The notes below the pieces were generated by a model. The model saw nothing but the letters and a program-made list of their open reading frames with translations. It was not told the origin of the DNA and ran no database searches. A DNA stretch of 64,000 nt, from NCBI GenBank assembly GCA_951406725.2, contig OX597821.1, positions 15,810,001 to 15,874,000 on the forward strand, written 5' to 3'. This document shows, one piece after another, positions 8,578 to 61,336 of this stretch. Source of the DNA: Octopus vulgaris. Taxonomy: Eukaryota. The translations under genes and the position numbers were made by a program. The number at the start of each line of letters is the position of its first letter. The stretch's first letter is position 1.

Positions 8578-8890
8578 AGTGTACATTTACATACATGAAG
8601 AAGTTTCCATCATAGGAATCCCTAATGCTAGAAGGAAGAGCTAAAGTCCAAACCACTAATTAGGGATAAATTCTCGAAGGGAATGAAAAATATAAACATT
8701 TACCATTACCTGGACCATGTTTTCTAACTTATTTTAGCAAATAAATTAAAATAATTTGCTAGGCGAAGTCTTCGTCAACAGTTACGTCAAGCTTAAACAT
8801 ATAAACTCGAGACCAATCCAGTATGTGCCTCTTGCTTATGCAATTTAATCTTTTCAAATCCACCGCGCTAGCGCAGTTACTTGTCGGCAG
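8578..8890 (-). mobile_element. Penelope-like pLTR / non-autonomous repeat with hammerhead-like motif (family H1)
   Basis: Homologous to about 60925-61220 (accactaatta.ggataaattctcgaa.ggaatgaaaa, gaccatg, agtctt.gtca). Abuts (TA)n. Confidence 0.6.
8710..8781 (-). ncRNA. Minimal type-I hammerhead ribozyme-like motif (degenerate)
   Basis: Minus strand reads CTG|TTGACGA|AGACTT...TAGCAAA/TTTGCTA...AAGTT|A|GAAA|ACATG|GTC|CAG. Stem I is CTG/CAG and the triplet is GUC. Confidence 0.5.
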
Positions 8891-9032
8891 CATAAATATG
8901 CCGGCAATTTCTTCGAACGAATCTTTCGACGAAATTCGTTTGAAAAAAATTGAAATGTATAAGGAAGAGGCACATGCTGGATTGGTCTCGTGTTTATATG
9001 TTTAATCTTAAATTAGGTTTATATGTTTAATC

Positions 9033-9132
9033 GTAAATTATCGATCCCTAAAGAATGAAAAACAAAAGAACCTCGGCGAAATTTGAAATCACAACGTAGC
9101 GGCGGCAGACGAAATACCGATAAGCATTTTTT
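9033..9132 (-). mobile_element. SINE family B fragment
   Basis: atcgatccc..aagaatgaaa..cctcggcgaaatttgaa..cagacgaaataccg matches about 34285-34375. Confidence 0.7.
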
Positions 9133-9284
9133 GTGATATTATTGTGATGTTTTTTGCAGCTTTAATAATACATACATATATATATATATATATATATATA
9201 TATATATATATATATATGTGTGTGTGTGTGTGTGTGTGTGTGTGTGTGTGTGTGTGTGTGTGTGTGTGTATTTGTGTGTGTGTA

Positions 9285-9720
9285 GGCGCAGCAGTGGCTG
9301 TGTGGTAAGTGTGCTCGTTACCAACCACATGGTTGAGAGTTAAGTCCCACTGCGTGGCACCTTCGCAAATGTCTTCTAATTTAGCTTCGGGTTGACCAAA
9401 GACTTGTGAGTGGATTTGGTTGACGGAAACTGAAAGAAGCTTGTCGTGTATATATACATATATATATATATATATATATATATATATATATATATGTATG
9501 TATGTCTACATCCATGTGTTTGTGTGTCTGTGTTTGTAACGCTACCATCGCTTAACAACCCATGTACGTGTGTTTACATCCTCGTAACTTAACGGTTCGG
9601 CAAATGATATCGGTAGAATGAATACTAGGCTTCCACGGAATAAGTCCTGGGGTCGATTTGCATTACTAAAGGCGGTGCTACAGCATGGCCGCAGCCAAGT
9701 GACTGAAACAAATAAATAAA
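9285..9720 (+). mobile_element. Full-length tRNA-derived SINE family A with internal (TA)n
   Basis: A-box-like gtggctgtgtgg, B-box-like gagttaagtccc, internal microsatellite, conserved 3' body. Confidence 0.92.
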
Positions 9721-11179
9721 TATATATATATATATATATAAATATATGTGTGCTTGCGCGCGCGTATATATATATATATATATATTTAAAAGTATTACAT
9801 ACCAAATCTGAAATAAAAGCATGATGGCAGAACGGTGACGTAATATCTAACCCCACTTAAAAATCAATGTTTTGTTAGAACAAACTTTACAGCAGTCCGC
9901 CAGAGAAATTCGCAGGTAGTCTTCCCAAATAAATATCGGTAATATGATATGCGCAATCGCTCTGTCAGTGTTTTGAGACACTTCTCCTGGTGCGATCCGT
10001 AAAAAGACAGTTGTTTGTAGTATCATTGTTGAATATTTCCGGTTTATTTTCAGATTCAGAATTCTTTTAAAATATTCTCCTTTTAGTTCTGTAGTCGGTC
10101 TTTTTCTTCCTATATTTTAAAGAAAAGGATTATTATCCATTATCACAGATGACTGGATGTTCATCACATGGAACATTTCTGTAATTTATTGGCCTAACCC
10201 GATCTAATAATTATGATCTTTTTGAGCGATATATTTCTCATTGCATGAGATGCAGTAAATTAGAGATTTTTTTCAAATTCATATGAAACAGACTATTGAA
10301 TCAAAGAAATCAAGGTTACTGGACAGCAGTTGGGATCAAAGCTTTAGCAGACAAAAATGGAAAAGCCGTGAAGAAGTCCCTCTTCCTCGTAAATTTCATG
10401 TCAAGATTTTATGATCTGATCCAAATGAGGAAACCAAAAATGAATAAAACTTGTACTTCAAAAATTCAAAGCAGTGATCACTCCTCTACTATTAAAAGGG
10501 AACAAAATGAAAGACTCAGGCCATAACGTTGAAAGAAATCACCGATCAAATCAAAGGACAGACCTAAGATAGAGAGACAGAGAGAAAACGAAATAAGATG
10601 AAGTAGTATTGTCGAAAATCTGTGCTGACTTCAATATGAAACCAACGTGGAAACATCATTAGTTAAAATTGGAAATAAAACGCTTAATTTTTATTGAATA
10701 TAAAAAGAAATTATAGGACCATATTTCTATTGGTGAGAGTCGTAGGGTGATAGTCCCAAACTGTACATATGCAAATACACACGCACAAACACACATGCAC
10801 ACACACATATACAGACACACACACAAATGTTATCAAAACAACTTGTCCAACCGTCTCATAGGCCTCCCCTTTGAGAAACACTGATTTAACCTAAATTTGA
10901 GACACCAGCAAAAGTAGAAATAACGATACATTCTGTTTCTATTCCAAAGAAAAACGATTTTAATGACAAATATGCAACTGAAGAGTTTAAAGTACCAGTA
11001 ATGCTAAGGCTGTTGACTGGGAGAAAACAAACATGGTTTAAACAGTAAGCTTGACAGGATAGAAACGTGCTTTTGAGCAGTACAAAAACAACAAAAAATG
11101 GAAGGTGCAGTTATGTACAGGTTGACAGAAGAAAAGCAGAACAAAAGTCGCTTTATCGATCGCATTCTCATCTGAAATC

Positions 11180-58739: not shown

Positions 58740-59650
58740 CATGAAAAACAAGATGGCAAACGTCTCACCCGAAACCAGTGTTCAGGGAGTTTTTTGTAAT
58801 TTAATGAATAGTGAAGCTTTATGCTATAAAAGGTAACTTGTAATGTGGAGTATTAAATGTATTATATAACACAGATATTACAATAAATAAGTTCAAGATA
58901 TCAAATGTACACTCTTAGAATTCTTTGCGAGGAATAGCTGATTAAAATTTTAGAAAAATGATATGGTAGGCCTTTAATATAGAAAGTCCCAAGACATCGT
59001 CCACACATCTTTTTAGTGTACAAAAGAATATTGCTTTTCAGAAAAAAAATTTAAAGGTTTTAGGTTCTTTATAGAGTGAAGTGTTGAAAGGGTGGGTATT
59101 ACTAATGTGAAGTAAATTTGTGTTTCTGATTTCTTTCTACTGCTGACAAAGTAGCTGTAGTCCTATAAATCAAAGCTGAGGCCTTTTGTAGTATTGGAGT
59201 GCACGAGGACTTGTCCGTAATTATATTTTTTGTGATCTTAGCTAATTATAATGTCAAAGAGTGACATTAAGATGTCGGTTAGATTAGTGGTATGTATTAT
59301 CATGGGAAATGAAGATGGCAAGAAACAAAAATTCTAGAACGTTCTCCTTTGTGAAGTAAGTTCGAAGGTCATTTAAAACACGTGTTTCTGTATAGTGTTG
59401 AGTTGGATTCAGAAGTGATCAGGTACACGTACATAAAAATTGTTTCGGTTTTACACTCCTCATTACCATAAAGACGGGTCATAATGCCAGGAAAGCAATT
59501 TCTCATTTTGTGTTCAACATACAGCCAAGGTTTACGCCAGCTTCATATAAGTTCTGGACAGCCATAGCAAAGTGTAAATCTAATTGCTTTGCTGTTAACC
59601 CATAAATTATCTCATAGGTGACGACCGACATACCAAGGGAGTGAAAAAAA
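58740..59650 (-). mobile_element. Possible heavily decayed Penelope-like ORF
   Basis: Minus-strand KRCVDDVLGL (about 59012-58983) resembles RT RYVDD. Other motifs are faint. Confidence 0.3.
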
Positions 59651-60444
59651 CCTCGGAATTGAATATTGACAGAACTGAATGCCTCACGTCCATAAAACCG
59701 TTTTATTTATTTATGTATCTATTTATTGTTCGTGTTCATGGACTACAATAACCATTTCCAATGCAAAGCAACCATTAAATTTAGAAATTTAGATTATACT
59801 TATTACGACTGGAATTGAAAATATCGGCAGATATCACGAACTGAATTTTTTGGAGGACAAAAAGTTGACATGATTGCGTTTGCGGAGCATTCCGTTTATC
59901 GCCATTAACGTAATTAACTGATGTTAAGCTATCCCAGACGCAGGCAGAATAAAATTCTCCCAGACTGACTTTTGTGCTTGTTTTATTCTTAACTAGATTA
60001 TTGGTAACGAAATGTATTGCCTATGTCAATATGAATAGAGTGATACAGGCCTAGCAATCACATATGACAGAGAGGAAGAATTTGCATTTGTTTAAGTGTG
60101 GAATGGCCTTAAAGCAATTACGCCTTTATCTGTTTAATTTCTCCTCTCTTTCAGCGAAAGCTTAAGGCAGTTTCGCAGGCACAACATTCAAATATAGGAC
60201 ACAAGCGAAAATGATTGTACACTATTTTATGTGTGTGTGTGGTATGGTGTATGCATTAGTCGATTTAGTACCACTCTTTTAGATAAATATATATTCAATT
60301 GAATCAGGTTGCATTTTGAATAGTCCCCTGAGATTACACCTCTGAGTAGCACATTGGACATATATTCTCATTGTCCAATCTTGGGTAATGATCTCTCTTA
60401 AGTTCCTGTCAGTTTTTAATGATACCGCCACTACAAACACAAGG

Positions 60445-60830
60445 TATATATATATTTATGCATACATACATGCATACATATATATACTTATATATATTTA
60501 TGCATACATACATACATACATACATACATATATATATATATACTTATATATATTTATGCATACATACATACATATATATATATATACTTATATATATTTA
60601 TGCATACATACATACATACATATATATATATATATATATATACTTATATATATTTATGCATACATACATACATACATATATATATATATACTTATATATA
60701 TTTATGCATACATACATACATACATATATATATATATACTTATATATATTTATGCATACATACATACACACATACATACATACATAATATATATATATAT
60801 ATATATATATATATATATATATATATATAA
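60445..60830. repeat. Compound minisatellite (TA)nCTT(AT)nTTATG(CATA)n
   Basis: About 7 higher-order units. Confidence 0.9.
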
Positions 60831-60831
60831 T

Positions 60832-61336
60832 ATTAGGGCAATAAGAATTATAGAACTTATTATTACCAGTGGCCTAGCATAAAAAGAATTTAGTCAATAG
60901 ACTATATATTATTCACATAAAAGTCTCGTGTACATTGAAACACATTAAGAGGCTGGAAAGAGCAGTAGAAAACTCATACCACTAATTATGGATAAATTCT
61001 CGAAAGGAATGAAAATTAAAAACGTTTACCATCTAATTTAATTCCTAGACCATGGTTTCTGACTAATTCCAGCAAAAAAATATTTACTTTGGCTAGTCTT
61101 TGTCAGTAGGGAGCCTTTAGATTTCAAGTATATACACAACTAGATCCGCGTGTAAAGCTAGTTGCCTGTATATCCTAACTTTTCAAAACTACTGCGCGGA
61201 TGTAGTTTATTTCCAGCGACAGAGATGAGTTCCTTTCGAGAACTTATCCCTAATTAGTGGTTTGAGTTTACTGCTCTTTCTAGTACAAGGCTTTCCTTTT
61301 TGAAAGCCTCTTAATGTTTTAATGTACATGAGATTT
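60832..61336 (-). mobile_element. Penelope-like pLTR repeat (family H1) with inverted terminal duplication, inside (TA)n
   Basis: Arms 60921-61009 and 61230-61336. Homologous to 8578-8890. Confidence 0.65.
61044..61110 (-). ncRNA. Type-I hammerhead ribozyme-like motif
   Basis: Minus strand reads CCTA|CTGACAA|A|GACTAG...TTAGTC|A|GAAA|CCATG|GTC|TAGG. Stem I CCTA/TAGG, palindromic ACCATGGT stem III, GUC triplet. Confidence 0.6.

What the first reader, a model, noticed from the sequence alone, without database searches (positions are those of the whole stretch)
8710..61110. Three distinct microsatellite-associated repeat families each carry a minimal hammerhead-like fold with a non-canonical core
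Seen: four motifs (8710-8781 -, 20982-21019 +, 57631-57671 -, 61044-61110 -) share the order stem I, YUGNNRA, stem II, GAAA, short palindrome, UH, stem I, although their stem sequences differ. The cores are UUGACGA, CUGUUGA, UUGACAA and CUGACAA rather than CUGAnGA, often with unpaired bases next to stem II. Known: minimal type-I hammerheads with palindromic stem III occur in Penelope-like pLTRs and retrozymes and cleave as dimers. Inference: these are ribozyme-bearing non-autonomous PLE or retrozyme families associated with (TA)n/(GATA)n, possibly using variant catalytic cores and partnered by PLEs like the RT remnant at 46852-47180.
Basis: partly seen in the sequence, partly recalled or inferred. 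Interest (0 to 1): 0.75.

Follow-up and report, generated by a model that had tools for sequence, protein, structure and literature searches.

The report
Variant hammerhead cores in Penelope retrotransposons
The four motifs are hammerhead-shaped RNA ends of three jumping-gene families, and three of them carry core changes shared across their family or subfamily rather than decay; one change (A to U at a normally fixed position) sits in over 15,000 copies of an element with intact genes and likely gives a slowed self-cutting RNA, though cutting is untested.

Summary
All four motifs are real minimal type I hammerhead folds at the 3' ends of Penelope-type elements inserted in microsatellites. Only 61044 (CUGACAA) is copy decay. 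57631 (U3-A8) is fixed in a very young autonomous family (99 of 100 listed copies); this compensatory core is published. 8710 (U3·G8 wobble) marks a subfamily of a ~470-nt non-coding, retrozyme-like repeat (57 of 100 listed). 20982 is the notable one: U at core position 6 in 15,730 genome copies versus A in 180, in both pseudo-LTRs of elements with open ~1,050-aa RT/GIY-YIG frames. Across five subfamilies, 0 of 14 core and stem I columns changed against 62 of 145 flank columns, while N7 and H17 varied: the catalytic pattern of constraint. I found no natural A6U hammerhead in the papers searched, but a key paper (Lünse 2017) was unavailable. U6 is predicted to zip onto A15.1 and lock the monomer. 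A genomic cut-footprint test was inconclusive; cleavage is unshown. This scan reported a fixed A6U core earlier in another genome (e1-9559914).

The parts
8569..8935 (-). Family A, subfamily A1: 5'-truncated copy of a ~470-nt non-coding tandem-prone repeat (retrozyme-like), 3' end next to (TA)n/(GATA)n
   Evidence: 84-86% identical to both units of the genomic dimer L224; direct-repeat spacing 451-482 nt in 6 distinct loci
8710..8781 (-). Minimal type I hammerhead, core UUGACGA (U3·G8 wobble; core 8778-8772), predicted cut between 8713 and 8712
   Evidence: U3 in 25 of 28 aligned relatives besides the window's copy and its local duplicate (by eye); U3·G8 in 57 of the first 100 of 349 pattern matches (by eye)
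8940..9009 (+). Short inverted piece of the same family-A element (Penelope-type inversion)
20563..21118 (+). Family B: 5'-truncated 3' pseudo-LTR of an autonomous Neptune/Nematis-like PLE, youngest subfamily, between two (GATA)n runs; ends 103 nt after the predicted cut
   Evidence: 96-97% identical to pLTRs of full-length L336/L338; end position; flanks
20982..21019 (+). Minimal type I hammerhead with A6U core CUGUUGA (core 20987-20993, U6 = 20990), extra A before stem II, stem II GAGC/GCUC, palindrome ACGU, predicted cut between 21014 and 21015
   Evidence: U6 15,730, C6/G6 422, A6 180 genome copies
46835..47179 (-). Broken RT-thumb remnant of a PLE related to family B
   Evidence: tblastn 60.8% identity over 125 aa, E 1.8e-31; 77% nucleotide identity to L336/L338; stops in frame
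57584..58478 (-). Family C: 5'-truncated 3' end of a very young autonomous PLE (unit 5.83 kb), includes the 44-nt tandem repeat 57685-57913; abuts a 2-kb (TA)n run (55559-57589)
   Evidence: 99.1% identical over 898 nt to full-length unit L172; 40 of 40 scored genome hits 100% identical over 111 nt
57631..57671 (-). Minimal type I hammerhead with compensatory U3-A8 core UUGACAA (core 57667-57661), palindrome ACCGGU, predicted cut between 57635 and 57634
   Evidence: 99 of the first 100 of 688 core-free pattern matches read UUGACAA
60809..61228 (-). Family A, subfamily A2 copy, running past its usual 3' end into the next unit, then (TA)n
   Evidence: 83.7% over 443 nt to L010
61044..61110 (-). 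Minimal type I hammerhead; core CUGACAA (61106-61100) is a private CpG-type decay of the subfamily's canonical CUGAYGA; predicted cut after 61048
   Evidence: among 27 A2 rows, 24 CUGAYGA, 2 CUGACAA (one is this copy), 1 other
61230..61354 (+). Inverted stub of the same family-A 3' end, closed by (TA)n (Penelope-type inverted insertion)

Best explanation
The four motifs are minimal type I hammerhead folds about 50-140 nt inside the 3' ends of three Penelope-type retroelement families, and three of the four odd cores are family-level variants that likely still cut RNA, the A6U form probably slowly. Shown: family B (A6U) and family C (U3-A8) are autonomous, with the motif in both pseudo-LTRs of full units; family A is a ~470-nt non-coding tandem repeat with canonical and U3·G8 subfamilies; the 61044 core is decay. 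Inferred: a transcript across a tandem carries two motifs, which pair through the palindromic stem III (ACGU, ACCGGU, ACCAUGGU) and cut after NUH, releasing unit-length RNA; the element's RT/GIY-YIG protein then copies RNA from about 100 nt downstream of the motif into (TA)n or (GATA)n, leaving 5'-truncated and inverted ends. U3-A8 keeps the 3-8 base pair. U6 loses A6's contacts and is predicted to pair with A15.1, closing the single motif into an inactive rod, so cutting would be rare and would need the dimer. Family A would borrow a PLE protein; which one is not shown.
For: Fixed cores: U6 15,730 vs C/G 422 vs A 180 in the same 27-nt context; 28 of 30 loci picked without regard to the core read CUGUNGA with N7 = U 11, A 7, C 5, G 5; the 20 A6 copies sampled lie scattered among U6 subfamilies and mostly share their N7, as back-mutations would. 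Autonomy: 19 fetched elements have open frames of 1,009-1,200 codons, 94-99% identical; 50 of 50 motifs found in 50 loci chosen by protein similarity read CUGUYGA; RVT_1 above cut-off, GIY-YIG below cut-off for B, both above cut-off on pieces of C. Constraint after the change: across five family-B subfamilies 0 of 14 core and stem I columns not fixed by the search pattern changed, against 62 of 145 ungapped flank columns (Fisher p 0.0007); N7 changed 4 times and H17 3 times, between A and U only. That is the hammerhead's catalytic pattern, not the rod's: N7 is paired in the rod yet free, C3, G8 and A9 are unpaired yet kept. Sister families keep CUGAnGA with the same stem II (7,611 matches). 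U3-A8: 9,101 of 9,952 matches with a CCGG stem III, with different stems I and II that still pair. Family A stems covary: stem I pair 1 A-U 27 / G-C 26, stem II pair 1 G-C 38 / A-U 11, pair 5 U-A 24 / A-U 8, of 53 rows. Rod fold: mean P(6-15.1) 0.68 in 29 U6 copies vs 0.0 in 20 natural A6 copies. Published: U3-A8 in Schistosoma PLE hammerheads and dimer-only weak cleavage (PMC4209133); natural A6C cuts slowly (PMC3088659, PMC7151607).
Against: No cleavage evidence was obtained. 5'-truncation junctions do not pile up at the predicted family-B cut: 40 in the 3-nt window at the cut, 54 at +6..+8, 22 at -12..-10; by eye 5-6 of 29 sites at the cut and 6 of 29 at another TA microhomology. A canonical sister gave 9 of 39 at its cut, which is also its only TA site, so the control does not validate the test. 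In a type III hammerhead all single changes in CUGA gave low activity (PMC9901934, passage). In the anole PLE, hammerhead-dead RNA inserted normally in vitro and no reads ended at the cut (PMC11167929, passage), so an active PLE need not cut. U6 alone staying unchanged along the lineage is not significant (57% of flank columns also did not change). Subfamilies were drawn by hand from a short, partly unresolved tree, and columns are not independent. Family-B stem II shows almost no compensatory change (mostly one-sided decay). Many family-C stem II strands are weak and A-U rich.
Confidence: 0.58

Rival explanations
1. The A6U motif is a dead ribozyme kept for another job: its sequence or rod fold is recognised by the element's RT/EN protein, or acts in transcription, so family B transposes from uncut RNA.
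For: U6 is predicted to close the core into a rod (P 0.98 in the window's copy). No cut footprint. Hammerhead cleavage was dispensable for insertion in vitro (PMC11167929). CUGA single mutants are poorly active (PMC9901934).
Against: The free positions are exactly N7 and H17 (A or U), and C3/G8 are kept, over five subfamilies. The rod is weak when N7 = G or C (P 0.21, 0.50), yet those subfamilies amplified with U6 unchanged.
Confidence: 0.3
2. The A6U hammerhead is fully active because a contact outside the core (the 4-nt GUAG loop that travels with U6, a downstream strand, a metal such as Mn2+, or the element's protein) makes up for the lost adenine.
For: U6 goes with loop GUAG while canonical sisters mostly have 3-nt loops. 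A6C is rescued by Mn2+ (PMC7151607). Family B (18,846 exact copies) outnumbers the canonical set (7,611).
Against: No covariation links position 6 to any partner here; PLE minimal hammerheads are slow even with canonical cores (PMC4209133).
Confidence: 0.1
3. All four odd cores are copy decay from CUGAnGA.
For: True for 61044. C-to-U and G-to-A are the commonest changes, so U3·G8 could have begun as one unrepaired change in a master copy that rode along on borrowed enzymes.
Against: Genome-wide counts and intact full-length elements show U6 and U3-A8 as the norm; U3·G8 spans several branches.
Confidence: 0.02

Closest known systems
Minimal hammerheads (min-HHR) in pLTRs of metazoan Penelope-like elements (Cervera and De la Pena 2014, PMC4209133; parts 1-2 of 4 read, supplement searched by term)
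   Same: Type I order, 4-5 bp stem I, unpaired nucleotide after A9, palindromic or absent stem III, position in pLTRs, mostly truncated single copies, opposite-strand pairs; U3-A8 variant reported in Schistosoma Cercyon PLEs.
   Different: Their consensus is CUGANGAH; the search of the supplement's text for CUGU showed 3 occurrences, the passages shown all outside the core. Family B has U6. Families A and C often have a mismatch or bulge on both sides next to stem II and C lacks G10.1-C11.1.
Neptune/Nematis EN+ PLEs (Craig et al. 2021, PMC8557442; passages)
   Same: RT followed by CX2-5CxxC linker and C-terminal GIY-YIG, partial tandems, inverted 5'-truncated copies, one-sided 30-40 nt tail, microsatellite targeting.
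   Different: Clade not tested by a tree with reference elements. Family C's coding region is split into two frames in the 3 loci examined.
Natural A6C hammerhead of phage Bcep176 (Perreault 2011, PMC3088659, passages; Naghdi 2020, PMC7151607, parts 1-2 of 4)
   Same: A pyrimidine at core position 6 in a natural hammerhead; slow in Mg2+, good in Mn2+.
   Different: C not U; one phage sequence with a full fold, versus over 15,000 copies of a minimal, dimer-type motif in an animal retrotransposon; U6 can pair with A15.1.
Metazoan non-LTR retrozymes (Cervera and de la Pena 2020, PMC7229834; passages)
   Same: Family A: non-coding, AT-rich, one type I hammerhead per unit, head-to-tail partial tandems; PLEs proposed as helpers.
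   Different: Unit ~470 nt (theirs ~170-400); long stem II and no recognised loop 1-loop 2 contact; one subfamily has U3·G8; circular RNA not shown.

Membership tests
Minimal type I hammerhead of PLEs | Stem I / core / stem II / GAAA / palindrome / UH / stem I order with pairing stems | tested here: met
   compensatory pairs in family A and across CCGG families
Minimal type I hammerhead of PLEs | Canonical core C3 U4 G5 A6 N7 G8 A9, or the published U3-A8 swap: family C and subfamily A2 | tested here: met
Minimal type I hammerhead of PLEs | Canonical core: family B (A6) and subfamily A1 (3-8 Watson-Crick pair) | tested here: not met
   U6 15,730 vs A6 180; U3·G8 57 of 100. Filed as variants that work like the family, not as consensus members.
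Minimal type I hammerhead of PLEs | Located in the pLTRs flanking an RT-EN ORF | tested here: met
   B: motif on both sides of the ORF in 16 of 20 fetched long-ORF loci; C: tandem L172. Not met for family A, which has no ORF in its unit.
Minimal type I hammerhead of PLEs | Self-cleavage after NUH as a dimer | not testable with these tools
   no assay possible; only contig-level runs were available
Minimal type I hammerhead of PLEs | Genomic footprint of cutting (copies starting at the cut) | tested here: inconclusive
   confounded by TA microhomology in both U6 and canonical families
Rfam hammerhead families | Score above gathering threshold | tested here: not met
   (three motifs); expected for motifs without a monomeric stem III
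EN+ Penelope-like elements (families B, C) | RT with C-terminal GIY-YIG endonuclease | tested here: met
   RVT_1 above cut-off in both; GIY-YIG 23.5 bits (cut-off 22.6) on the C piece, 17.1 bits (below cut-off, E 0.007) in B
EN+ Penelope-like elements (families B, C) | Partial tandems, inverted truncated copies, microsatellite targets | tested here: met
Neptune/Nematis clade | CX2-5CxxC linker between RT and EN | tested here: met
   present in 19 of 19 family-B proteins and in family C
Neptune/Nematis clade | Placement in an RT phylogeny with reference PLEs | not tested
Metazoan non-LTR retrozyme (family A) | Short non-coding unit with one type I hammerhead, in tandem | tested here: met
   spacing 451-482 nt in 6 distinct loci; no shared ORF within 1.5 kb upstream in 54 loci; nearby GIY-YIG pieces belong to other insertions
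Metazoan non-LTR retrozyme (family A) | Abundant circular and linear monomer RNA | not testable with these tools
   no raw RNA reads were offered

The most novel reading that the evidence does not exclude
Family B is a naturally working A6U hammerhead used as a built-in lock: U6 zips the core onto A15.1 so that a lone copy stays uncut, and only tandem transcripts, where two ACGU palindromes pair, open the rod and cut. The most abundant of the hammerhead sets counted here would then owe its form to tuning its ribozyme down, and this genome would hold a graded natural series (C3-G8, U3·G8, U3-A8, A6, U6) in sister elements for testing what hammerheads do for Penelope elements.
Probability: 0.3. 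Interest if true: 0.72.

Novelty: new variant of a known kind. Interest (0 to 1): 0.5.

Why it matters
Why nearly all Penelope-like elements carry a hammerhead is open: the motifs cut poorly, and in the one reconstituted system cutting was dispensable. Family B offers a clean natural test. It is an element with many intact copies that has kept every catalytic position except A6 through at least five subfamilies, beside sister families with the canonical core and the same stems. If it cuts, A6U joins the short list of natural core variants and standard CUGAnGA descriptors miss the largest hammerhead set counted in this genome (over 15,000 copies, plus about 9,100 U3-A8). If it does not cut, it shows that the motif is kept for a non-catalytic role. 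The U3-A8 and retrozyme parts are ordinary members of published kinds.

Tried and rejected
DNA search for family B returned nothing because very common words are skipped; replaced by patterns. Whole-window Rfam scan was swamped by microsatellite miRNA look-alikes. The repeat finder was swamped by (TA)n. Search for family-B stem II covariation: 581 matches, the 100 listed almost all one-sided changes, one clear compensatory case. Genomic cut footprint: no excess over microhomology in U6 or canonical families (distinct sites tallied by eye from redundant listings). Sequencing runs: no RNA holder listed; only contigs, which cannot show ends. The 'no other letter' result at U6 in three other organisms is uninformative because the known N7 variation was not listed either; one contig of organism C is identical across 20940-20999. 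GIY-YIG pieces upstream of family-A motifs in L268 and L263 turned out to end before the A element starts, so family A was not called autonomous. A first pair table for family A caught only 26 rows and was redone (53 of 62 rows parsed). Tree labels are shifted by two bases and its group table is empty; I read the states from the labels. Lünse et al. 2017 on PLE hammerhead variants is not held; it and its supplements may already list U6 or U3·G8 cores. A literature search for C3U/G8A/wobble gave no paper.
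Full report
Observation. A descriptor built on them finds 4 sites in the window against 0.26 on average in 100 shuffles, but it is post hoc, missed motif 8710 and added one site I did not follow. The window lies in a 2.8-Gb genome of 227 contigs; its size, microsatellite load and other notes of this scan suggest an octopus-like animal, which I did not test. 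Self-comparison puts 8710 and 61044 in one family, giving three families: A (8710, 61044), B (20982), C (57631).

Family A. The closest relatives of 61044 read CUGAYGA in nearly all rows; of 27 parsed rows with its stem I, 24 are CUGAYGA and 2 CUGACAA, one being this copy. So this core is CpG-type decay. The relatives of 8710 differ: stem I is CCUG/CAGG instead of CCUA/UAGG, and most read UUGACGA. A pattern open at positions 3, 7 and 8 gave 349 matches; by eye the first 100 are 57 U3·G8, 33 C3-G8, 5 U3-A8 and 5 others. In a flank tree of 40 rows rooted on the other subfamily, U3 rows are basal and 9 of 10 canonical CUGAAGA rows form one nested clade (99/98), which reads as a return to the canonical pair after a period of wobble; the tree is short and much of it is unresolved. 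Stems covary across the family. The unit is about 470 nt and non-coding: direct repeats 451-482 nt apart in 6 distinct loci, no shared ORF within 1.5 kb upstream in 54 loci, and two nearby endonuclease pieces belong to other insertions. Both window copies carry an inverted piece. This fits a retrozyme-like passenger of PLE enzymes (PMC7229834, passages); the helper is not identified.

Family C. All 40 scored hits are 100% identical over 111 nt. A core-free pattern gives 688 copies, and 99 of the first 100 read UUGACAA. Copies often come as inverted pairs 1-10 kb apart, bounded by (TA)n, with pieces of coding sequence inside. A direct tandem with a 5.83-kb unit holds RT, a CxxC linker and GIY-YIG; the window copy is 99.1% identical to it over 898 nt. 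U3-A8 is the compensatory form of the C3-G8 pair. It dominates a wider group: 9,101 of 9,952 matches with a CCGG stem III (controls 99 and 232), in families with different, still pairing stems (30 loci shown). It is published for Schistosoma PLEs (PMC4209133) and as a natural covariation already shown active in vitro (PMC3088659).

Family B. A 20-nt pattern without the core has 18,846 exact matches (control 0). Of 30 loci taken in genome order, 28 read CUGUNGA, with all four bases at N7. Genome-wide, position 6 is U in 15,730, C or G in 422 and A in 180: A is at the level of a neutral transversion. Eleven copies found by downstream flank alone outside the selected loci and still holding the motif, the window's own among them, show U6 in all (by eye; one has a change at G5). 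A flank tree of 77 rows separates family B (100/100) from sister families with CUGAnGA and the same stem II (7,611 matches), shows a ladder of subfamilies with N7 = U, C, G, A, U, and scatters the A6 copies among them; a few basal A6 rows could be a true canonical remnant. A protein search listed 150 hits of 12,137 candidates, many in frames over 1,000 codons. Of 20 fetched, 16 show motif-ORF-motif about 4.4-4.6 kb apart, and all 50 motifs found in the 50 protein-selected loci read CUGUYGA. Nineteen proteins compared are 94-99% identical to one of them. So the U6 form belongs to an autonomous, recently active element. The RT remnant at 46835-47179 is an older relative.

Is the U6 motif still under selection? 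Taking majority letters for five hand-drawn subfamilies, none of 14 core and stem I columns left free by the pattern changed, against 62 of 145 flank columns (p 0.0007); N7 changed at every step and H17 moved between A and U. This is the constraint pattern of a working hammerhead. U6 alone being unchanged proves little. Folding predicts that U6 pairs with A15.1 and G5 with C15.2, closing the monomer into a rod (mean 0.68 in 29 U6 copies, 0.0 in 20 natural A6 copies; weaker when N7 is G or C).

Does it cut? Not shown. Copies truncated at the 5' end do not cluster at the cut beyond TA microhomology (40 vs 54 and 22 in equal windows; 5-6 of 29 vs 6 of 29), and the canonical sister behaves alike (9 of 39 at its only TA site; 2 of 37; family B 4 of 43). 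No RNA holder was listed and only contigs could be laid. The literature cuts both ways: natural A6C is slow in Mg2+ but good in Mn2+ (PMC7151607); single changes in CUGA gave low activity in a type III hammerhead (PMC9901934); PLE minimal hammerheads cut weakly and only as dimers (PMC4209133); and an anole PLE inserted normally with a dead hammerhead (PMC11167929).

In print? Searches for hammerhead with A6U (2 listed, on twister ribozymes and RNA selection; not opened), CUGUUGA (2 listed, unrelated by title; not opened), Penelope with CUGU (one paper, the passage shown is a template sequence), octopus and the 2014 supplement showed no natural A6U hammerhead. Lünse et al. 2017 could not be read.

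Verdict. New variant of a known kind. One motif is decay, one is a published variant, one is a subfamily wobble in a passenger repeat, and one is a family-wide A6U core in an intact PLE that keeps the catalytic pattern of constraint. I put about 0.58 on slow but real cutting, 0.3 on a dead motif kept for binding, 0.1 on full activity. Interest 0.5.

Noticed in passing
L172:734-4443 (G000:C2, family C full unit); also L173, L069: The coding region is split in two frames: a ~440-aa frame starting about 150 nt after the hammerhead core ends where an ATG of the RT-EN frame overlaps its stop; a pyrimidine run ending in AG lies about 30 nt before. Retained intron, reinitiation or frameshift. A related family (L135) is also split.
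   Followed up: partly
window 6300-9700: Duplicated at 98.6% over 3.4 kb about 12.6 kb upstream, outside the window (L422), including motif 8710; the long (TA)-rich array at 1-6341 lies between.
   Followed up: partly
G000:C1:20002279-20004541: Array of seven hammerhead matches about 360 nt apart with canonical CUGACGA core and CCGG stem III, while similar stems elsewhere carry U3-A8.
   Followed up: no
window 57685-57913: 44-nt tandem repeat (about 5 copies) just upstream of the family-C hammerhead, variable in copy number between near-identical elements.
   Followed up: no
window 21038-21048 and family B/sister loci: A conserved GAGCG some 25 nt after the cut site could pair with the 3' strand of stem II and compete with the hammerhead fold; present in U6 and canonical families.
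   Followed up: no
L171:4071-8123: Two long frames of an LTR-retrotransposon-like gag-pol, separated by one stop, directly upstream of the family-C tandem.
   Followed up: no
L134:8160-9899: 580-codon open LINE-like RT frame.
   Followed up: no
L050, L127, L146, L114: Further hammerhead families with canonical cores and other palindromes (CAUAUG, UUGCAA, CAGCUG, CAAUUG) seen in fetched loci.
   Followed up: no
window 30691-30721: Extra descriptor hit (core CUGAAAA, weak stems), probably chance.
   Followed up: no
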